Origin: a virus
Lineage: Duplodnaviria > Caudoviricetes
Reading direction: 5' to 3' (one strand)
DNA length: 64,000 nucleotides
IMG/VR virus record: IMGVR_UViG_3300030511_000001
Location: 17,634-81,633 of that record
The notes beneath the pieces are model-generated. The model was not told the DNA's origin, ran no database searches, and saw only the letters and a list, made by a program, of their open reading frames with translations. The position numbers and the translations under genes are program-made. Shown here piece by piece: positions 7,825-56,735 of the stretch (the first letter of the stretch is position 1; each line of letters opens with the position of its first letter).

Positions 7825-8106
7825 ATGGAGGCGGTGCAGGTCTACGTCACCCCCGAGTTTTTTGATGGCACGTGTCCCTATCCGGTCGCGGCGCTGTGGA
7901 TCGATGGTGCGCTGTTCGACACCTACCCGTGCGGCATCGTTCGCAAGCGCGTGAAGTGGCTGCCGCTGTGGCTCCCCTTCAACGCGCGCTACGACTTCTC
8001 CATTTACGCGCAACTCGCGTGCGTGAAGCGGCTGCGTGAGCTCGGCGAGGAACTGCGGACGCACATGCACGGCGCGATTCGTCGTGATGTAGAATGCCAC
8101 GCATGA
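7825..8106 (+). CDS. hypothetical protein
   Basis: SD GAGGAG; fills the gap before the ATPase gene. Confidence 0.55.
   Translation: MEAVQVYVTPEFFDGTCPYPVAALWIDGALFDTYPCGIVRKRVKWLPLWLPFNARYDFSIYAQLACVKRLRELGEELRTHMHGAIRRDVECHA
8077..8095 (+). promoter_or_regulatory. class II motif / promoter of the leaderless ATPase gene
   Basis: ATTCGTCGTGATGTAGAAT, ATG 7 nt downstream. Confidence 0.7.
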
Positions 8107-9902
8107 AAAAGCTGGCGATCGGCGACCCTGAACAGAACGGCGCGACTCTCCCCCTGAAGATGCTCGAGCTCCGAAGCGTGACGCTCGGCAGCTCGGGATC
8201 CGGCAAGACGACCGGCGGCCGCGTGCTCGCCGAGGAGTGTTACGAGCAGGGCGTGCCGTTCGGCGTGATCGACCTCAAAGGCGACTGGTGGGGATTGAAG
8301 TCGAGCGCGGACGGCAAGTCAGCCGGCATCCCGGTCGTCATCTTCGGCGGCGATCATGCGGACCTTCCGCTCGACGAGCGCGGCGGCGCGGCGCTCGCTG
8401 AAATCGTCGTCGACATCCGGCAGCCGTTCATCATCGACCTGGAGAATCTGTCGCGCGCAAAGCAGTGCACGTTCCTCGCTGACTTCTTCGACCGTCTCTA
8501 CGACGTGAACCGCGAACCGCTCGTGCTGTTCTGCGATGAGGTGGACCGATACGCGCCGCAGAAGTCGATGACGGCGGAGGCCATCAAATCGCTCTCGGCG
8601 ACGGAAGACCTTGCGAAGCGCGGCCGCAAGCACGGGATCTTCCCGAAGTTCATCACGCAGCGAAACGCCTCGCTGAACAAGAACGTGGCCGAGCTGTGCG
8701 ACGTGGCGATGGTCTACCGCACCTCCGGGCCGAACGATCAGGAGGCGGTGTCGAATTGGTTCAAGACGAAGGCGACGAAGGACCAGCTCACGAGCGTGAT
8801 GGCCGTCCTCGCCGGCCTCGAGACCGGCACCGCCGTCGTGTGCAGCGCGCATCCGTCCGTGCGCACGTTCGAAACGATCGCGTTCCGCGAGCCCCGCACC
8901 TTCGACTCCTCGGCCACGCCGGAGATCGGCCGCACGGTCATCAAACCGAAGGCGATGGCTTCGGCGGACCTCGACGCGCTGCGCGAGCGCATGGCCGCGA
9001 CGATCGAGCGGATGAAGGAGAACGATCCGAAGGAGCTGCAGCGCCGAGTGAAGGAGCTCGAGGCCGCGGCGAAAAAGGCCGGCGGCATGCCGACCGAACA
9101 GCAGCGCGCTCTCCTCGAGGAAGCCCGCGCCGCCCGCGTGGCGGCTGAGCGAGAAGTTGAGCAGCTACGCGCCAGCATCCGCGACCTGCGCGCGCGACTG
9201 AAGAACATCCGCGCGCACGCGGTGGCAATCGAGGAGGCGTCCGCGCTGGACGGTGAGGAGCCGAAAGCGGCCGCGCCACGCACGTTCTTCCTGAACGAGC
9301 AGCATGAGAGCCGTGGTCGGAAGTCGGCGCCGGCGCCGATCGTCCACAAGATGCCCGCCGCGAAGGTCGTGAAGGCGGCACCGCCGGCGGCGGTCTCGTC
9401 GAACGGTTTCCAGCCGAACGGTTCTCAGCAGCGAGTACTCGACGCGATCGCGTGGTGGGCGTCGATCGGCGTGCCGGAGCCGAGCCGTGCGGCCGTGGGC
9501 TTCGTCGCCAAGATCAAGCCGACCGGCGGCCACTTCAGCAACACCGTTGGACCGCTGAACACGCACGGCCTGACCTTCGCGCCGCGCGACGGCTTCATCG
9601 CGCTCACGCCCGCCGGCGAGGGGCATGCGAATCATCCGGACACGCCGCCGACGCTGGCCGAGTACCACGCCGCCATCCGGTCGATTCTGAAGACGGGCGC
9701 GTCGATCAAGATGTTCGATGCGATCGTCGAGCACGGGCCCGGCGAAATGACCGTGGCCGAGGTGGGCGAGGCCACCAACATCGACCCCACCGGCGGGCAC
9801 TTCAGCAACTCCATCGGCCCGCTCGGCACCCTCGGGATCATCACCCGAGGCGCCGGCATGGTGCGCCCGACCGAGCTGCTGTTCCCGCCGCACCTTTCGT
9901 GA
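8103..9902 (+). CDS. HerA/FtsK-superfamily (DUF87-like) ATPase with coiled coil and tandem C-terminal wHTH repeats
   Basis: Walker A GSSGSGKT, Walker B VLFCDE, RGRKHG and ITQR motifs; repeated PTGGHFSN..GPL. Confidence 0.8.
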   Translation: MKKLAIGDPEQNGATLPLKMLELRSVTLGSSGSGKTTGGRVLAEECYEQGVPFGVIDLKGDWWGLKSSADGKSAGIPVVIFGGDHADLPLDERGGAALAEIVVDIRQPFIIDLENLSRAKQCTFLADFFDRLYDVNREPLVLFCDEVDRYAPQKSMTAEAIKSLSATEDLAKRGRKHGIFPKFITQRNASLNKNVAELCDVAMVYRTSGPNDQEAVSNWFKTKATKDQLTSVMAVLAGLETGTAVVCSAHPSVRTFETIAFREPRTFDSSATPEIGRTVIKPKAMASADLDALRERMAATIERMKENDPKELQRRVKELEAAAKKAGGMPTEQQRALLEEARAARVAAEREVEQLRASIRDLRARLKNIRAHAVAIEEASALDGEEPKAAAPRTFFLNEQHESRGRKSAPAPIVHKMPAAKVVKAAPPAAVSSNGFQPNGSQQRVLDAIAWWASIGVPEPSRAAVGFVAKIKPTGGHFSNTVGPLNTHGLTFAPRDGFIALTPAGEGHANHPDTPPTLAEYHAAIRSILKTGASIKMFDAIVEHGPGEMTVAEVGEATNIDPTGGHFSNSIGPLGTLGIITRGAGMVRPTELLFPPHLS

Positions 9903-11738: not shown

Positions 11739-11994
11739 GGAATCGCGCCGCGCGGCCAACGCCGCGATCGCTGCCGGTTCGGATGAGGAAGTCGACGCAG
11801 TCGTCGGCGGCGTCGTCCGGGGCGTGCGCGAGTTCGTCGCGCTCATTCGTTGCGGCCGCCGTGACTGCACGTACGCCGGCGAGCACATGATGCCGCTGCG
11901 CGATCGCATCCACGCAAGCGAGTGGATCGGGATGGCTGTGCTCCTGCATCCGACGACGCCGAACCTCCGCGTCGAGCTGCGCCGGTTGACGTAG
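11728..11994 (+). CDS. hypothetical protein
   Basis: 88-aa ORF in the operon. Confidence 0.55.
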   Translation: MNSEESRRAANAAIAAGSDEEVDAVVGGVVRGVREFVALIRCGRRDCTYAGEHMMPLRDRIHASEWIGMAVLLHPTTPNLRVELRRLT

Positions 11995-12013
11995 ATTCGT
12001 CATTGCGTATAAT
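11986..12013 (+). promoter_or_regulatory. strong sigma70 promoter overlapping a class II motif
   Basis: TTGACG-16-TATAAT; ATTCGTCATTGCGTATAAT. Confidence 0.8.
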
Positions 12014-12121
12014 GGCCCGCGCCGGCCCGGCTTCCCGCAAAGGTGGCGCGTTCCCGTTGCAAGACGCAGCGCGCAAAGCTGGCGCCGAACCCGAGGCCGG
12101 CGCAAAATCGAAGGAGGAACG

Positions 12122-12670
12122 ATGGAACCGACGACCACCACCATCACCGAGGCGCTGGCCGAGGTGAAGCTGATCGGAAAGAAGATCGGCAAGAAACAGG
12201 AGTTCATCCTCACCTATCTGCTGCGCGGCGCGATGGTGAAAGACCCGCTCGAGAAGGACGGCGGTTCCGAGACGATCGTCGCTCGCGAGATGCAGGCGAT
12301 TCGTGACCTCGAGGAGCGCGTCGTGAAGATTCGCACGGCGATCGCGCACGCGAACGCCACCGCGCAGCTCACGATCGGGACGACCACGCGCACCGTGTCG
12401 GAGTGGCTGACCTGGCGCCGCGACGTCGCGCCGATCGAGAAGAAGCTCCTCGGCGACATCGTGGCCCGCGTCAACGCCGCGCGTGAACAGGCGCGCCGCG
12501 CCACCGGGAAGCTCACGAGCGACGCCGCGGCGGCCGAACCGTCCGACATCCTCGTGAACCTCAGCGAAGTCGAGATCCAGACCCGCGTGGAGGCGATCGA
12601 GGAAGTGCTCGGCCGTCTCGACGGGTTGCTCTCCCTGCACAACGCTCGCACCACCATCACGCTCAACTAG
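12122..12670 (+). CDS. helical coiled-coil protein, DIP1984-family-like
   Basis: TITEALAEVKLIGKKI...KIRTAIAHAN...EWLTWRR...LDGLLSLHNA; family recalled from the pattern, not searched; SD AAGGAGG. Confidence 0.6.
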   Translation: MEPTTTTITEALAEVKLIGKKIGKKQEFILTYLLRGAMVKDPLEKDGGSETIVAREMQAIRDLEERVVKIRTAIAHANATAQLTIGTTTRTVSEWLTWRRDVAPIEKKLLGDIVARVNAAREQARRATGKLTSDAAAAEPSDILVNLSEVEIQTRVEAIEEVLGRLDGLLSLHNARTTITLN

Positions 12671-12678
12671 CTCAGGAT

Positions 12679-12956
12679 TGCCTTCGGCGGCGAAGTGAGA
12701 GAACGACAGCGGATCAAGGCGCCCTCGCCTTTCTCGGTCAGGGGGCACATGCTTGCGGAGCATGCGCAGCGGTTCAAACCCGCACGAGCTAACACGCTCA
12801 ACGCTCAGAAGTTGAAAGGTACGAACGATGACAAGCTCAGTGCTCATGCTTCAAAGCTCGGTAAAACCCGCCATTTGACTGGCCGCGGCGGAAACGTCGC
12901 GGAGGCGCCCACCGTTGCCGGCGCCTTCTCAGGTCGGCGGCTGCTGTTCGGAGGCA
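12679..12956 (+). ncRNA. candidate ~280-nt structured ncRNA
   Basis: 5' and 3' ends pair over ~14 bp; GAAA tetraloop hairpin, T-loop-like hairpin, GCTCA repeats; no credible ORF. Confidence 0.65.
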
Positions 12957-12960
12957 TGTT

Positions 12961-13833
12961 TTGAGCGGGCGCGTCCTCGAGATGCGCACAAACGCGGAGG
13001 GCGGCGTCCGGATCATTGAGGATGCGAGCGTCGGCCCGCCGGATGTGGAGGATGTCGTACGCCGGTACGGCATCCGCCCGACATCCATGGCGGTCTACTA
13101 CGACGGCTCGGGCATCGCCAAAACAGAGCTGCACTTCGATCCGCCGGCGAGGCCGTTCACGCCCACGATCCCCGGACGCTTTCAACCGCCGATCGGCCCG
13201 TCTCTCGCCGAGGCGATGGAGAACTTCGGCTCCGGAGTGCTCAACGGGTTGCGCACGCAGCTCCGCAACGAACGGATGATCCGCAAGGCGTACGAGATGG
13301 GCGCGACCGTGCGATCGAACGCGAAGCCCGAGCAGTGGACGTGCGGCCGCTGCGTGCTCGACTGGCCCGACGAGTCGCCGGTCTGTCTGATGTGCGGCAA
13401 CACCGCGGTTGCGCGGCATGTCCCGCCGCAGTCGATCCGTATCCCCGCGCTTCCGCCAATGGGTGAGACGCGCGCCGTGCGCGTCGCGATCGACGGGAAA
13501 GTCGTGGGCGAGGTGCCGGTCGGCTCCTTTCTGGTGCTGAACGAAGGACCGACGCACGAACTGTCCGGCGTCACGATCGGCCACGGGTACGAGCTCGAGG
13601 CCGAGGAAGTCGCGCCGGCGCCGGTCTACGGCTTCGGCGTCTCGCCGGACGGTCTCACCGTGGATCCCGCACCGTTCGGAGCGTTGCCCGCGCCGCTGGC
13701 GAAGGCGAAGCCCGAGACGTGGGCCGAGAGTTACGAGACCATGTTCCGCATGCTCGGCAACGCTCGCGCCCTCGAGGCCATGGGCGTGCCGGAACCTTCA
13801 CGCCCGTACCGACACACCTTCCGAGTGAGGTAG
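12961..13833 (+). CDS. hypothetical protein with Zn ribbon
   Basis: TTG start after GGAGG; WTCGRC...CLMC. Confidence 0.6.
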   Translation: MSGRVLEMRTNAEGGVRIIEDASVGPPDVEDVVRRYGIRPTSMAVYYDGSGIAKTELHFDPPARPFTPTIPGRFQPPIGPSLAEAMENFGSGVLNGLRTQLRNERMIRKAYEMGATVRSNAKPEQWTCGRCVLDWPDESPVCLMCGNTAVARHVPPQSIRIPALPPMGETRAVRVAIDGKVVGEVPVGSFLVLNEGPTHELSGVTIGHGYELEAEEVAPAPVYGFGVSPDGLTVDPAPFGALPAPLAKAKPETWAESYETMFRMLGNARALEAMGVPEPSRPYRHTFRVR

Positions 13834-20273: not shown

Positions 20274-21500
20274 ATGGCTAACCAGTTCGACAAAATCGCG
20301 AGCGATATCACCTTCTTCGGTACGCTCGTCCTCGCGCAGCTCCGTCAGCAGCTCGCGCTCGTCAATCGCGTCAACACCGACTACAAGGGCGCTTCCTCGG
20401 CGGCCGGTCGGAAGATCAGCATCCCCGTGGTCGAGATGTCCGGCAGCGCGCAGACGCGCGGCATCGGCGGCGGCGTCACCCGCAACAGCGGTAAGGCGAC
20501 GGCCGTCGAGGTGGTGATGCAGCAGATCACCTACTCGTGGGAGCTCGACAACCTCGAGGAGACGTTCTCCAACGTCAACACCGTCCTCGAGATGGCGCAG
20601 CGCGCCGCGATCAAGATGGCGGACGGCGTCGACGCGCTGCTCACCGGCCTCTGGCCGCTGATCCCGTATCGCGTCGGCCCGCTCGACGGCTCGGGTCTCT
20701 TCAACCCGACCGACAAGGTGAAGGCGTTCGCTCAGGCCCGCAAGGCCCTGAAGGACAACCTCGCCCCGACCGACCGTCTGTTCATGATCCTCGGCACCAC
20801 CGAGGAGCTGAACCTCACCACGCTCGACATCTACACCCAGGCGCAGCAGTCGGGCGATCCGACGCAGCTTCGCACGGGTGCACTCAAGCCGATCATGGGC
20901 GTGCAGCCGTACGCCTCGCAGGCCGTGCCGACGAACATCACGTTCACGCCGGCCGACAACACCGGCTGGAACACCCCGACCACCTCGGGCGTGAACGCCA
21001 TCGGCGCGACGACGCTGAACGTGGCCGGTCTCGCCAATGGCGCGACCATCACCAAGGGCAGCATCTTCACCATCGCCGGCGGCGGCACCATGCCGAACGG
21101 TCAGCCGCAGCCGTATTCGGTCACGGCCGACGTCGTCGCCAGCGGCGGCGGCGCCGCGGCGCTTCCGATCTCGCCCGCGCTGAAGGCGGCGCCGGCGAAC
21201 GGTGCGACGATCACGCCGGTGGCCTACACCGGCACCCACTCCATCAACCTCATCGCGGACCCGAGCGCGTATCTGTTCGTCGTTCGTCCGCAGGCCGCGG
21301 TTCCTCCGGGCGCCGGCGTCCTGCAGATGGACTTCACCGACCCCGTGTCGCAGCTCACCTTCCGTCTGTCGATCGAGGCGAACATCGCCCGCGACAACGC
21401 TGCGGGCCGCGCGTACACCACCGTGTGGACGCTCGACCTGCTCGCCGGCGCGAACATCGTTCGTCCGGAGCTGGCGGTGCGCGCCGAGGGCGAGGCGTAG
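20274..21500 (+). CDS. major capsid protein, P22 coat-like
   Basis: 408 aa; MANQF start; insertion domain IFTIAG...YSVTADV..ALPISPAL; position after scaffold. Confidence 0.8.
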   Translation: MANQFDKIASDITFFGTLVLAQLRQQLALVNRVNTDYKGASSAAGRKISIPVVEMSGSAQTRGIGGGVTRNSGKATAVEVVMQQITYSWELDNLEETFSNVNTVLEMAQRAAIKMADGVDALLTGLWPLIPYRVGPLDGSGLFNPTDKVKAFAQARKALKDNLAPTDRLFMILGTTEELNLTTLDIYTQAQQSGDPTQLRTGALKPIMGVQPYASQAVPTNITFTPADNTGWNTPTTSGVNAIGATTLNVAGLANGATITKGSIFTIAGGGTMPNGQPQPYSVTADVVASGGGAAALPISPALKAAPANGATITPVAYTGTHSINLIADPSAYLFVVRPQAAVPPGAGVLQMDFTDPVSQLTFRLSIEANIARDNAAGRAYTTVWTLDLLAGANIVRPELAVRAEGEA

Positions 21501-53593: not shown

Positions 53594-53988
53594 CGGCGGT
53601 CGTTGTCCTCGACCGTCTTCACAGGCAGCGCGAGATCGCCGCGTGGTGCGTGCAGGCATTCGGTGCCGGCCACGCGGCGTCCGTTCCTCAGCGTGCCGTT
53701 CGGCTGCTGGAGGAGGTGCTGGAAGCGTGTCAGGCCGCCGGCGTCGATCCGGACATGGCGCACCGCCTCGTCGACTTCGTCTATGCGCGGCCGTGCGGGG
53801 ACATCACGAAGGAGCTCGGCGGCGTGGGCGTCACGCTGCTCGCGCTGGCCGAAGCGTGCGGCGTCGACGCCGACGTCGAGGAGGTGCGCGAGATTCGCCG
53901 AGTGATGGCGAAGCCGCTTGCCGAGATGACAGCACGCAACGAAGCGAAGAACGCGGCAGGCTTCGCCGTGGCTGGCGGTGCGCAATGA
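53590..53988 (+). CDS. MazG-like nucleotide pyrophosphohydrolase
   Basis: RLLEEVLEA...KELGGV helical acidic motif. Confidence 0.6.
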   Translation: MTAVVVLDRLHRQREIAAWCVQAFGAGHAASVPQRAVRLLEEVLEACQAAGVDPDMAHRLVDFVYARPCGDITKELGGVGVTLLALAEACGVDADVEEVREIRRVMAKPLAEMTARNEAKNAAGFAVAGGAQ

Positions 53989-56735
53989 CGGCAGCCGCAC
54001 AGCTCCCGTGGGAAACCGAGGCGCAGCAACTCCGCATCCTCGGCCTGCATCGATCGAGACTTCGCCCGGGCGAGATCGGCGTCGACCTGTTCGCCGGCGG
54101 AGGCGGGTACTCGGAAGGCTATCAGTGGGCGGTCGGCATGCCGCCGGCGGTCGCGGTGAATCACGACGCCAACGCGATCGCGATGCACACGCTCAATCAC
54201 CCCGAGTCCGAACACTTCCTCGAGGATGTCTTTCACGTCGATCCTCTGCTCGCGGTTCGCGGGCGCCTCGTCGGGGTGCTGCACGGCAGTCCTGACTGCA
54301 CGCACTTCAGCCGGGCCAAGGGCTCGGTGCCGAAGTCGAAGAAGATTCGCGGCCTCGCCTGGGCGATCGTTCGGTGGGCGGCCGAAGTCTCGCCGCGCAT
54401 CCTTTCGCTCGAAAACGTCGAGGAGTTCATCACTTGGGGCCCGCTGCACGACACCCACAGCGGCGGATGCCGCGGCAAGGTGGACGAGTCGTGCCCGACG
54501 TACCGGAAGGGCTGCCACTTCGGCACGCCGATCAAAGCGCGCGCCGGCGAGACGTTCCGCGCGTTCGTGGCCTGCCTCACCACCGGCCTCGAGGCGGGGC
54601 ATCCGGCGTATGAGGACATGCACTTCGCGCTCGTCGGCGATCCTCCGGAGCCGTGCAAGCGCCACGTGCTGCGCCGCCGGCGGAACTGCGCGGCCTGCAT
54701 CGCGGTCGCAACGTCCGACTATCCCCGCATGCCGCTCGACCGCTACGCCGCGATCGTGGCGAAGTGCCAGGCCGGCCTCGGGTATGAGATCGAGTGGCGC
54801 ACGCTGCGCGCGAGCTACTTCGGCGCGCCGACCTCGAGGAAGCGTCTCTACGTCGTCGGCCGCCGCGATGGCGAGCGTCCGCGGTGGCCGCTGCCGACGC
54901 ACGGCCCCAAAGCGTACAAGCCCGAGCTCACGGCCGCGGACTGCATCAACTGGGCGGACCTCGGCGTTTCCATCTTCCTCACCGCCGAGGAGGCGCGCGC
55001 GTACGGCGTGAAACGCCCTCTGGCCGAGGCGACGCAGCGGCGCATCGCAGAGGGGATCCGGCGCTTCGTCCTGAACAACCCGAAGCCGTTCCTCGTCCCG
55101 TACCACAGCGCCAGGCGCCCCGATGAGACGCCGCGTGTGCACGACGTCGGCGACCCGCTCGCGACGCAGACGACGGAGAACCGCTTTGCAGTCGTCACGC
55201 CGACGCTGATGAGCAACAACACAAACAACGCGCCGCACTCGGTGGAGGAACCGCTCGGCGCGATCACGACGGGAAACCGGCACTTCGCCGTGGCCCCCAT
55301 GCTCACGCCGGCGCACTCGCACGGGTGGGACCGCGCCGGCGGCCCGAGCTGGCCGGTGGATCAGCCGGTCGGGACGGTCGTCGGGAAGGACGGGAAGGCG
55401 CTCGTCGCTCCGCAGCTCCTCAACGTCACGCATGGCGGCCGCATCGAGCCCGCCGACGAGCCGTTCAAAACGATCACGGCCGCGCACCGCGGCGAGAAGG
55501 CATTGATCGCGCCGGTGCTGACCCGGACGGCGCACGGCGAAGAAGGTCCGAACGGATCGAAGCGGTGGGGCAAGGGCGCGCACGAGATCGACGAGCCCGT
55601 GCCGACCGTTACCGGATCGAACGACTTCGCGCTCGTCGCGCCGACGCTCATCCAGACGAGCTACGGCGAGCGGGAGGGGCAGTCGCCGCGCGTGCTCGAC
55701 CTGCACGAACCGCTCGGCACCGTCGTCGCCGGCGGCGTGAAGCATGGCCTCGTCGACACGCTACTCGCCCGCGAGGAGGACGTCGCGGCGTTCCTCGTCC
55801 GCAACAACACCGGCATGAACGCCCGCGATCTGACGGAGGTAATGCCGACCGTCTGCGCGCGCGAGACCATGTCGCTCGGCCTGGCGCACCTGACGAAGTT
55901 CAACACGGGCAGCGTCGGGCAGCCGATCGATCAGCCGGTGCCGACGATCACCGCCGGCGACGGATCGAAGCGGCCCGCCGGCGCCGCCCACGGTCTCGGC
56001 GTCGTCACCGCGCACGTCGTCACGCACAACGGGCAGTCGATCGGCGCGGCGGCCGACGCGCCGGTTCCGACCGTCACCGCTGGCGGCATGGGACACCAGG
56101 GCGTCATCGCCACGCACATGCTCGGCGTCGAGCCGTGCCCCGACGACGACGGGGAGACGCGGTGGCACGTCCCGACCGGCTACTGCGTCAACGCGGACGG
56201 CCTCCGCGAGTACGTGCGGCTGCAGGAGATCGAGGCCGCGGAGCTCGCGGCGGCGATCCACGTGACGAAGTTCAACGGGACGTCCGAAGCCGGAGCGCCC
56301 ATCGACGAGCCGTTGCACACAGTGACGAGCGGCGGCAACCGCGGCGGCGGGCATCACGGCGTGGCCGCGGTGCATCTCGCGAAGTATTACGGCTCCGACG
56401 AACACGGCCAAGCGGCCGATGAACCGCTGCACACCATCCCGACCGTCGACCGTTTCGCGCTCGTCGCCGCGTTCCTCCGCAAGTTCGATGTGATCGACGA
56501 CGACCGGCCGTACGTCACGGTCACGATCGAGGGCGAGACGTTCATCCTCTACGACATCGCCATGCGCATGCTTCAGCCGCGCGAGCTGGCGCGCGCGCAG
56601 GGCTTCCCCGACACCTACCAGCTCATCGGCACGAAGTCTCAGCAGGTCGCGCGCATCGGAAACAGCGTGTGCCCGCACGTCGCTGCAGCAATCGTTCGCG
56701 CGAACCTCGACAGCGAGGAGGAAGTGTGGAACTGA
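53985..56735 (+). CDS. C5 DNA cytosine methyltransferase with a repeat-expanded variable region
   Basis: DLFAGGGG, SPDC, ENV, R.RLY, RMLQPRELARAQGF, IGNSVCP. Confidence 0.9.
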   Translation: MTAAAQLPWETEAQQLRILGLHRSRLRPGEIGVDLFAGGGGYSEGYQWAVGMPPAVAVNHDANAIAMHTLNHPESEHFLEDVFHVDPLLAVRGRLVGVLHGSPDCTHFSRAKGSVPKSKKIRGLAWAIVRWAAEVSPRILSLENVEEFITWGPLHDTHSGGCRGKVDESCPTYRKGCHFGTPIKARAGETFRAFVACLTTGLEAGHPAYEDMHFALVGDPPEPCKRHVLRRRRNCAACIAVATSDYPRMPLDRYAAIVAKCQAGLGYEIEWRTLRASYFGAPTSRKRLYVVGRRDGERPRWPLPTHGPKAYKPELTAADCINWADLGVSIFLTAEEARAYGVKRPLAEATQRRIAEGIRRFVLNNPKPFLVPYHSARRPDETPRVHDVGDPLATQTTENRFAVVTPTLMSNNTNNAPHSVEEPLGAITTGNRHFAVAPMLTPAHSHGWDRAGGPSWPVDQPVGTVVGKDGKALVAPQLLNVTHGGRIEPADEPFKTITAAHRGEKALIAPVLTRTAHGEEGPNGSKRWGKGAHEIDEPVPTVTGSNDFALVAPTLIQTSYGEREGQSPRVLDLHEPLGTVVAGGVKHGLVDTLLAREEDVAAFLVRNNTGMNARDLTEVMPTVCARETMSLGLAHLTKFNTGSVGQPIDQPVPTITAGDGSKRPAGAAHGLGVVTAHVVTHNGQSIGAAADAPVPTVTAGGMGHQGVIATHMLGVEPCPDDDGETRWHVPTGYCVNADGLREYVRLQEIEAAELAAAIHVTKFNGTSEAGAPIDEPLHTVTSGGNRGGGHHGVAAVHLAKYYGSDEHGQAADEPLHTIPTVDRFALVAAFLRKFDVIDDDRPYVTVTIEGETFILYDIAMRMLQPRELARAQGFPDTYQLIGTKSQQVARIGNSVCPHVAAAIVRANLDSEEEVWN

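What the first reader, a model, noticed from the sequence alone, without database searches (positions are those of the whole stretch)
12122..12956. Coiled-coil gene followed by a ~280-nt end-paired RNA with repeated GCUCA motifs
Seen: right after the stop of the 182-aa helical gene, TGCCTTCGG-CGGCG (12679-92) pairs with TGCTG-T-TCGGAGGCA (12942-56), closing the region. Inside are CATGCT/AGCATG (12748-64), a T-loop-like GCGG-TTCAAAC-CCGC (12769-83), CCGCGGCG-GAAA-CGTCGCGG (12883-902) and AGGCGCC/GGCGCCT (12903-26). A central A-rich, poorly paired stretch has repeated GCTCA/GCTTCA/GCTCG units. The unit has its own strong promoter (TTGACG-16-TATAAT). Inference: a protein-plus-RNA module (RNP scaffold, type III TA-like, or anti-defence sponge) in which the repeats are binding sites for the upstream protein.
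Basis: partly seen in the sequence, partly recalled or inferred. Interest (0 to 1): 0.8.

Follow-up and report, generated by a model that had tools for sequence, protein, structure and literature searches.

The report
Knotted heptad-repeat phage RNA, partner protein
The roughly 280 bases behind this phage's small helical-protein gene encode a real, pseudoknotted non-coding RNA carrying a row of 7-base repeats; the same gene-plus-RNA pair recurs in about 90 uncultured phages and, in diverged form, in cultured phages including T5, and its function is unknown.

Summary
Window 12679-12956 (+) is a structured non-coding RNA. I add three long-range helices (P2, P3, P4) that form a pseudoknot. All helices covary strongly across 34-80 copies.

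The "GCUCA units" are about nine heptads, AAGNUNA. I found no conserved pairing among them. The "T-loop" is a decayed tRNA arm: 27 of 89 relatives carry a genuine tRNA at that position.

Homologues of the 182-aa protein have this RNA next to them in all 89 loci with enough flanking DNA. It usually starts within 25 nt of the stop codon. A search starting from the RNA found it only beside the protein. No other gene is conserved nearby.

The protein is a four-helix protein. It matches PHROG 1491 and is a distant DIP1984/3KDQ look-alike. Rfam 15 has no match for the RNA.

Diverged versions of the pair sit, unannotated, behind PHROG-1491 genes in T5 (T5.085), Acinetobacter phage ME3, and Vibrio, Bacillus, Pseudomonas, Aeromonas and Clostridium phages.

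This scan has found the same module before on other DNA (for example e1-128593 and e1-5390134).

Most likely it is a dedicated phage ribonucleoprotein. Protein binding to the heptads and the function are not shown. A type III toxin-antitoxin reading is not supported.

The parts
11986..12013 (+). Sigma-70-like promoter, TTGACG-16-TATAAT, for the module
   Evidence: 11 of 12 matches. It is identical in the close relative L094. Promoter-like motifs occur upstream of the gene in 34 of 89 loci, against 11.5% of control windows.
12014..12121 (+). 5' leader with ribosome-binding site; holds two heptad-like AAAG(G/C)UGG motifs
   Evidence: Blocks are conserved only in L094. There is no nhmmer match in the other loci. 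AAGNTNA is weakly enriched upstream of the gene family-wide, 0.31 against 0.105 per 100 nt.
12122..12670 (+). Partner protein, 182 aa: four long helices plus a small sheet; PHROG 1491; distant DIP1984/DUF6847-like
12679..12691 (+). 5' strands of closing helices P1 (12679-88) and P1b (12689-91)
   Evidence: P1 pairs with 12946-56 and P1b with 12940-42.
12692..12703 (+). Conserved junction GAAG, then the 5' strand of pseudoknot helix P2 (12696-12701)
   Evidence: P2 pairs with 12926-31. Five of six pairs show double changes.
12704..12785 (+). Variable insert holding a decayed tRNA-like domain (hairpin 12748-64, T-arm-like 12769-83)
   Evidence: In relatives this slot holds real tRNAs with at least 15 different anticodons, some with an encoded CCA. 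ARAGORN calls no tRNA in the window.
12786..12862 (+). Array of about nine heptads AAGNUNA in two blocks around a short spacer; no conserved pairing found
   Evidence: The 7-nt spacing dominates. No covarying helix was found in this stretch.
12863..12872 (+). Invariant AAAA(C/U)C motif and the 5' strand of P3 (12868-72)
   Evidence: P3 is 99.4% paired and four of five pairs covary.
12877..12880 (+). 5' strand of P4
   Evidence: It pairs with 12932-35 and all four pairs covary.
12883..12902 (+). Hairpin P5 with a GNRA loop (GAAA here; GAGA in most copies)
   Evidence: There is a compensatory change against L094.
12904..12925 (+). Hairpin P6
   Evidence: There is a compensatory change against L094.
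12926..12956 (+). 3' strands, in order: P2 (12926-31), P4 (12932-35), P3 (12936-40), P1b (12940-42), P1 (12946-56)

Best explanation
Window 12122-12956 is a self-contained phage module with two products. One is a 182-aa helical protein (PHROG 1491). The other is a non-coding RNA of about 280 nt transcribed with it or just behind it.

Shown:
- The RNA folds into a closed, pseudoknotted core (P1 to P6, with a GNRA-capped P5).
- The core holds out a large loop with two contents. One is a variable insert that in many relatives is a real tRNA. The other is an array of about nine heptads, AAGNUNA, with no conserved pairing.
- The RNA and the protein gene co-occur strictly.

Inferred:
- The RNA is a stable trans-acting product. 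Where tRNAs abut or sit inside it, tRNA-processing enzymes probably trim its ends.
- Several copies of the protein bind the heptad array, giving a ribonucleoprotein particle.
- The particle acts during infection, probably on an RNA- or translation-related process, given how often it sits in tRNA clusters.

The function itself is unknown.
For: RNA reality:
- Covariation is strong in all six helices on structure-blind alignments.
- Stops occur in all six frames in most copies.
- Against the 82%-identical relative L094, the RNA core and heptads are better conserved than the protein gene, and P5 and P6 show compensatory changes.
- The plus-strand fold has z -1.99, the minus strand z -0.48.

Coupling of RNA and gene:
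- nhmmer finds the RNA in 89 of 92 loci. The other three contigs end too early.
- The median gap from stop codon to RNA is 5 nt.
- Covariance model R1 finds one copy per locus.
- The RNA-first scan gave 21 full RNAs, all beside the gene.
- No other family is conserved nearby.

Trans-acting rather than a mere 3' UTR:
- In L089 and L049 the RNA lies upstream of the gene.
- Seven loci have a tRNA abutting the 3' end, and 27 have a tRNA inside.

Breadth:
- 455 protein clusters at E<=1e-30.
- Diverged pairs occur in cultured phages ME3, pVp-1, Ceto, BCP8-2, UAVern, LAh_8, D-1873 and T5.

Possible RNA-contact residues: the invariant residues include R35, R71, W95, W98, R99, R100 and R121.
Against: - No expression data.
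- Protein-RNA binding is untested. The protein is not markedly basic, with pI 5.0-9.0 across the family.
- The protein has no recognised RNA-binding domain.
- Adjacency alone could reflect co-regulation rather than physical binding.
- The heptads could instead bind a host factor or another nucleic acid.
Confidence: 0.6

Rival explanations
1. The RNA works on its own, as GOLLD and ROOL seem to. For example it could self-assemble, or bind ribosomes or tRNAs. The neighbouring protein would then be only a co-expressed helper (chaperone or stabiliser) or functionally separate. The heptads would bind a conserved host component.
For: - Same genomic ecology as GOLLD and ROOL: phages, tRNA islands, tRNAs embedded in a variable region (10.1101/2024.12.08.627333 read).
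- The GNRA loop and pseudoknot point to a compact autonomous fold.
- The hosts span many phyla, so any host target would have to be universal.
Against: GOLLD and ROOL have no fixed protein neighbour. Here the protein is present in every case, in both search directions. The order can flip while adjacency is kept.
Confidence: 0.2
2. The element is a cis-acting 3' UTR or leader. It would stabilise or autoregulate the protein's mRNA, or control the downstream gene by hiding the GGAGG at 12950-54 inside P1.
For: - The RNA starts a median of 5 nt after the stop codon.
- GGAGG in the P1 3' strand sits 6 nt before the TTG start at 12961.
- Heptad-like motifs are mildly enriched in the gene's own leader.
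Against: - The downstream genes are not conserved. In seven loci the next feature is a tRNA, not a coding gene.
- In two loci the RNA lies upstream of the gene.
- In 23 loci the RNA is separated from the gene by 70-1077 nt.
- About 280 nt with a pseudoknot, a GNRA loop and an embedded tRNA is far more than a stabiliser needs.
Confidence: 0.1
3. It is a toxin-antitoxin-like or counter-defence pair. In one version the RNA neutralises a toxic protein, as in type III systems. In another, the RNA with its tRNA mimic and repeats acts as a decoy for host RNA- or tRNA-targeting defences.
For: - It is a two-gene mobile module sitting where accessory genes gather, between replication and packaging genes.
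- It carries a tRNA-like domain.
- It is exclusive to phages.
Against: - No PADLOC match.
- The protein fold is a helical bundle, not a ToxN/AbiQ-type nuclease.
- The repeats are 7 nt and downstream, not about 36-nt units upstream of a terminator.
- No evidence of toxicity.
Confidence: 0.1

Closest known systems
Unannotated RNA behind T5.085 in phage T5 and behind its PHROG-1491 homologues in cultured phages (ME3_186, pVp-1_0069, BCP8-2_026 and others); noted repeatedly by this scan, and not described in any paper I found
   Same: - The partner protein belongs to the same PHROG family. P0001 scores E 1e-17, ME3_186 8e-44 and T5.085 9e-84.
- The RNA lies directly behind the gene.
- It has a closing helix.
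- It has a heptad array ending in AAA(A/U)C plus the P3 5' strand, with the P3 3' strand followed by CUG.
- It has tRNA or tRNA-like inserts and sits in tRNA-cluster settings.
   Different: - The sequences are too diverged for my HMM or model R1 to detect them.
- Those RNAs are longer (360-500 nt) and their proteins are about 200-220 aa.
- Direct protein comparison is weak (hhalign E 8e-4, probability 25%).
- I did not align the two RNA groups column by column.
GOLLD and ROOL RNAs (large ornate phage and prophage RNAs)
   Same: - They are encoded by phages and lie near tRNA islands.
- tRNAs are sometimes embedded in a variable linker.
- They have complex pseudoknotted folds.
- Their function is unknown (10.1101/2024.12.08.627333; PMC5737381).
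   Different: - Rfam models give no match.
- This RNA is much smaller, about 280 nt against 500-800 nt.
- It has an obligate protein neighbour and a heptad array with no conserved pairing. No protein partner is known for GOLLD or ROOL.
Multi-site RNA-protein assemblies: CsrB/RsmZ with CsrA, TRAP with its (G/U)AG repeats, HutP with UAG every 7 nt (from my own knowledge)
   Same: A row of short single-stranded sequence repeats is presented by a structured RNA. HutP sites share the 7-nt period.
   Different: - The motifs are unrelated and the proteins have unrelated folds.
- Binding here is not shown.
- Those RNAs are regulatory targets or sponges of cellular regulators, not phage modules.
Y RNA (YrlA) with Ro/Rsr, and tmRNA with SmpB (RNPs with a tRNA-like module; from my own knowledge)
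   Same: A closing stem made by the two RNA ends, plus a tRNA-like domain. Each has a dedicated small or medium protein partner encoded nearby.
   Different: - No Rfam match to YrlA or tmRNA, and ARAGORN finds no tmRNA here.
- The tRNA insert is optional, present in 27 to 45 of 89 copies.
- The partner protein is helical, with no SmpB or TROVE family match.
DIP1984 family protein (PDB 3KDQ; NCBIfam NF038048; Pfam DUF6847)
   Same: - It is the best structural match of the AF2 model: Foldseek probability 1.0, TM 0.51/0.59.
- Weak HMM hits appear in 9 to 11 of 37 relatives.
   Different: - P0001 itself is below every cut-off.
- The function of DIP1984 is also unknown, and I found no paper on it.
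- I did not look for RNA partners of DIP1984 genes.

Membership tests
Any Rfam 15 family (including GOLLD, ROOL, YrlA, tmRNA, RAGATH-27 RF03100, RAGATH-19 RF03096) | cmscan score at or above the family's gathering score | tested here: not met
   - Window: 0 matches at gathering.
- Window 12600-13020: only mir-3960 at E=4.
- Nine metagenomic loci, seven cultured-phage loci and the T5 locus: only embedded or neighbouring tRNAs, one drum RNA and sub-threshold noise.
Heptad-repeat phage RNA plus PHROG-1491 partner (T5.085 type; a working family of this scan, not a published one) | Partner protein belongs to PHROG 1491 | tested here: met
   P0001 against phrog_1491: E 1.3e-17.
Heptad-repeat phage RNA plus PHROG-1491 partner (T5.085 type) | Non-coding RNA directly beside the gene, closed by pairing of its ends, with a pseudoknotted 3' domain | tested here: met
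Heptad-repeat phage RNA plus PHROG-1491 partner (T5.085 type) | Array of 7-nt-spaced units ending in AAA(A/U)C plus the P3 5' strand, with the P3 3' strand followed by CUG | tested here: met
   The window shows it. The same layout was read by eye and by script in ME3, pVp-1, BCP8-2, D-1873, LAh_8 and T5.
Type III toxin-antitoxin (ToxIN, CptIN, TenpIN) | Tandem RNA repeats of about 34-45 nt upstream of the toxin gene, separated from it by a terminator | tested here: not met
   The repeats are 7-8 nt and lie downstream of the gene. No terminator lies between them.
Type III toxin-antitoxin (ToxIN, CptIN, TenpIN) | Toxin is a ToxN/AbiQ-type endoribonuclease | tested here: not met
   - No PADLOC or Pfam hit.
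- The AF2 model is a helical bundle.
- No nuclease appears among the fold matches.
DIP1984 / DUF6847 protein family | HMM score above the curated cut-off (NF038048 or PF20935) | tested here: inconclusive
   - P0001 has no hit.
- 9 of 37 relatives hit Pfam and 11 of 37 hit NCBIfam weakly, with best E 2e-4 to 5e-4.
- The fold match to 3KDQ has probability 1.0 but TM only 0.51/0.59.
tRNA (the insert at 12704-12785) | Cloverleaf recognised by ARAGORN or RF00005 | tested here: not met
   The window insert is not called a tRNA. Inserts at the same position in relatives are called, for example L032 at 69.8 bits.

The most novel reading that the evidence does not exclude
A previously undescribed, widespread phage ribonucleoprotein. 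A pseudoknotted scaffold RNA presents about nine single-stranded heptads that load an oligomer of the DIP1984-like protein. The particle, matured by tRNA-processing enzymes and often carrying a tRNA, would act on the host's translation or tRNA machinery, or on RNA-directed defences. That would make it a new class of phage RNP alongside tmRNA-SmpB and Y RNA-Ro, and it could be tested in phage T5.
Probability: 0.3. Interest if true: 0.9.

Novelty: categorically new. Interest (0 to 1): 0.78.

Why it matters
Large structured RNAs with dedicated protein partners are rare, and each one characterised so far (RNase P, SRP, tmRNA, Y RNA, OLE) revealed new biology.

This RNA has no Rfam family. I found no paper describing it. 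It is tied to a protein family of at least 455 sequence clusters in phages of many bacterial phyla.

Diverged versions lie unannotated in well-studied, cultivable phages such as T5, Bastille-like Bacillus phages and T5-like Vibrio phages. Its role can therefore be tested directly with standard phage genetics and biochemistry.

It also corrects annotation. The partner protein is labelled "tail fiber protein" in RefSeq with no support found here. The gaps behind it are not empty.

Tried and rejected
Readings rejected:
- Coding reading of ORF 12695-12964. Homologous copies have stops in every frame.
- A DNA-level reading (iterons, origin). The covariation follows RNA pairing rules including G-U, and only the plus strand folds well.
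- tmRNA or tRNA in the window. ARAGORN finds none.
- Pairing between the two heptad blocks. No covarying helix appears among 80 copies.
- A conserved second RNA in the 5' leader. There is no match outside the close relative L094.

Searches that came back empty:
- Rfam in gathering and E-value modes on the window, 9 metagenomic loci, 7 cultured-phage loci and T5.
- tblastn of P0001 and P0031 against GenBank phages. The cultured relatives were reached only through the fold search and PHROG 1491.
- Model R1 on ME3 and CcrColossus. PHROG 1491 is also absent from CcrColossus.
- Papers on DUF6847 or DIP1984.
- The main text of PMC5737381 does not mention RAGATH. The virus RNA catalogue PMC10690425 has no supplement held, so I could not check whether it lists this RNA unnamed.
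- The T5 CRISPRi paper PMC11879866 does not mention T5.085.

Full report
**What is in the window**

The window is part of an 81.6-kb, 67% GC phage contig. It carries a major head protein at 20274-21500, tail genes and a large DNA methyltransferase.

At 11986-12013 there is a near-consensus promoter. The 182-aa ORF follows at 12122-12670. After it comes a 290-nt stretch before the next gene at 12961.

The plus strand folds with its ends paired (MFE -122 kcal/mol, z -1.99). The minus strand does not stand out (z -0.48).

**Is it conserved?**

The protein has more than 200 relatives of about 180 aa. A full profile search finds 455 clusters at E<=1e-30 and 1659 at E<=1e-3.

I fetched 16 loci from metagenome-assembled genomes of many phyla: Planctomycetota, Bacteroidota, Chloroflexota, Alphaproteobacteria, Armatimonadota, Acidobacteriota and Clostridia. 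I fetched 76 more from IMG/VR viral contigs.

nhmmer seeded with window 12671-12965 and iterated twice finds the element in 89 of the 92 loci, always on the gene's strand. The three misses (L009, L012, L047) are contigs that end at or just after the gene.

- The median distance from stop codon to RNA start is 5 nt.
- In 66 of 89 loci the distance is within 25 nt.
- In 21 loci the RNA lies 70-1077 nt downstream of the gene.
- In L089 and L049 the RNA lies upstream of the gene.

I also ran the reverse test, scanning IMG/VR for a 5' RNA motif. It returned 46 stretches. Twenty-one hold the full RNA, and all 21 have the protein gene beside it. The rest are chance matches, for example inside an S21-like ORF.

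Clustering all neighbouring ORFs shows no other conserved family; the next best occurs in 8 loci. The neighbours that recur are replication genes upstream (DNA polymerase A, primase-helicase, SNF2) and large terminases downstream.

**Is it RNA?**

Most copies have stop codons in all six frames. The 89-aa ORF at 12695-12964 is therefore an artefact of high GC.

On a structure-blind MAFFT alignment of 34 copies, six helices are 91.9% paired. Column shuffles give 67% and slid partners about 45%. There are 295 double-change cells against 83 expected, and 0 of 500 shuffles reach the observed score.

On 65 copies of the 3' domain the figures are 92.8% paired against 56.7% shuffled and about 40% slid. 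Double-change cells number 527 against 150.

An HMM-column alignment of 80 copies recovers the same helices. It finds none in the repeat region.

The helices in window coordinates are:

| Helix | 5' strand | 3' strand | Note |
|---|---|---|---|
| P1 | 12679-88 | 12946-56 | closing helix |
| P1b | 12689-91 | 12940-42 | |
| P2 | 12696-12701 | 12926-31 | crosses P3 and P4 |
| P3 | 12868-72 | 12936-40 | |
| P4 | 12877-80 | 12932-35 | |
| P5 | 12883-90 | 12895-902 | GNRA loop |
| P6 | 12904-08 | 12921-25 | |

P2 crosses P3 and P4, so the core is a pseudoknot.

The 82%-identical relative L094 keeps the core and repeats almost unchanged while the protein gene has many substitutions. It shows compensatory changes in P5 and P6.

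Covariance model R1 of the 3' domain finds exactly one copy per locus.

**The loop contents**

Between P2 and P3 lie two things.

The first is a variable insert.
- In 27 of 89 copies ARAGORN calls a tRNA there, with at least 15 different anticodons.
- Some have an encoded CCA end.
- Infernal confirms several at 43-70 bits.
- 45 of 89 copies keep a T-loop motif.
- The window keeps only a T-arm-like hairpin (12769-83) and another hairpin (12748-64).

The second is an array of heptads, AAGNUNA.
- The dominant spacing is 7 nt.
- There are about nine units in two blocks around a spacer that sometimes holds an extra hairpin.
- The array ends in an invariant AAAA(C/U)C that leads into P3.

Seven loci have a tRNA starting within a few bases of the RNA's 3' end. 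In L089 a tRNA ends 8 nt before the RNA's 5' end. This suggests that tRNA-processing enzymes help define the RNA ends. That is inference.

**The protein**

AlphaFold2 gives a confident model (pLDDT 95.9, pTM 0.81) with four long helices and a small sheet formed by the termini and a central hairpin.

- The best solved match is 3KDQ, the C. diphtheriae DIP1984 protein of unknown function (probability 1.0, TM 0.51/0.59).
- The DIP1984 and DUF6847 HMMs hit 9 to 11 of 37 relatives weakly.
- PHROG 1491 matches at E 1e-17. Its label "tail fiber protein" has no support that I could find.
- There are no PADLOC hits.

**Cultured phages**

The viral fold library matched uncharacterised proteins of cultured phages.

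In Acinetobacter phage ME3 the PHROG-1491 gene ME3_186 is followed by a 383-nt unannotated gap that holds a "tRNA-OTHER" feature. Read on the gene's strand, the gap shows:
- a closing helix, UAACUAAG/CUUAGUUA;
- a tRNA-like domain;
- about ten heptads, NAGUUNA;
- AAAAUCCACG paired with GCGUGG.

ME3_186 has homologues in 78 cultured-phage records. All six I opened have an unannotated gap of 360-1230 nt behind the gene: pVp-1, Ceto, BCP8-2, UAVern, D-1873 and LAh_8. Most sit next to tRNA genes. The gaps show the same hallmarks. P3 changes from CCCAG/CUGGG in pVp-1 to CCCUG/CAGGG in Ceto, a compensatory change.

T5 itself has T5.085 (PHROG 1491, E 9e-84) followed by a 442-nt gap without any RNA annotation. 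That gap has the same layout.

None of these regions matches an Rfam family.

The link between the window's subfamily and the T5/ME3 subfamily rests on three things:
- the shared PHROG;
- the fold match;
- an end-to-end but weak hhalign (E 8e-4) together with the shared RNA layout.

I did not build a joint RNA alignment.

**Earlier notes of this scan**

A word search shows that this scan has reported the same heptad-repeat RNA plus partner protein several times on other DNA, T5-like phages included. I confirmed the T5 claim myself.

Their statement that Rfam's RAGATH-27 covers the first 86 bases does not hold for this window, for T5, or for the other loci I scanned. It may hold for other sub-lineages.

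One earlier report was later checked, with the outcome "part of it fell". I do not know which part. Expression in infected cells remains unshown here too.

**Interpretation**

Shown:
- the RNA is real;
- it has a pseudoknotted fold;
- it couples strictly with the protein gene;
- the pair is widespread.

The partnership in a ribonucleoprotein and the heptads as protein-binding sites are inferred. I put about 0.6 on a dedicated RNP.

The rivals are an RNA-only function of the GOLLD/ROOL type, a cis-acting UTR, and a toxin-antitoxin or decoy role. Each fits the evidence less well, but none is excluded.

Heptad-like motifs are about three times enriched in the 100 nt upstream of the gene. That would fit autoregulation by the protein, but it may simply reflect base composition.

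Noticed in passing
window 12014-12121: The 5' leader of the gene has blocks conserved with L094. They include two heptad-like AAAG(G/C)UGG motifs and a possible long-range helix, GCGCCGGCC with GGCCGGCGC. The leader is not conserved in other loci.
   Followed up: partly
window 8094-9902: A 602-aa HerA/FtsK-like ATPase (Pfam HerA_C, PADLOC HerA models, weak PHROG terminase hit) lies upstream of the module. It could be this phage's packaging ATPase or a defence-type HerA.
   Followed up: no
window 53643-56735: A 1030-aa protein gives strong matches to DNA methyltransferase PHROGs, with several stretches, so it may be a fused multi-domain methylase.
   Followed up: no
G000 contig ends (outside the window start): The last 100 bases of the 81,633-nt contig recur at positions 153-253 near its start, but the last 200 do not. 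The repeat is short and near-terminal, not a clean circular overlap.
   Followed up: partly
L146:2910-3017 (Clostridium phage D-1873): A drum RNA (RF02958, 47.7 bits against a gathering score of 43) lies about 450 nt downstream of the heptad RNA, in the same long unannotated gap.
   Followed up: no
L147:1046-1342 and 2390-2521 (Aeromonas phage LAh_8): A gene annotated as putative RNA chaperone ProQ sits just upstream of the PHROG-1491 gene. The 787-nt gap behind that gene gives a sub-threshold STnc100 match (37.7 bits against 47) ahead of the heptad RNA.
   Followed up: no
L035:8951-9323 and L091:3423-3784: ARAGORN calls tmRNA genes (one of them permuted) on viral contigs that also carry the module. 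L036, L019 and L040 hold arrays of 20 or more tRNAs next to it.
   Followed up: no
L121:1000-1240 (minus strand): A viral contig encodes a small, very basic ORF resembling ribosomal protein S21. It matched the RNA's 5' motif by chance.
   Followed up: partly
NC_005859 40848-41566 (T5): T5's RefSeq record annotates another 'stable RNA with unknown functions' (rnaX) about 2 kb from the T5.085 gap. The heptad-RNA gap itself carries only a promoter feature.
   Followed up: no
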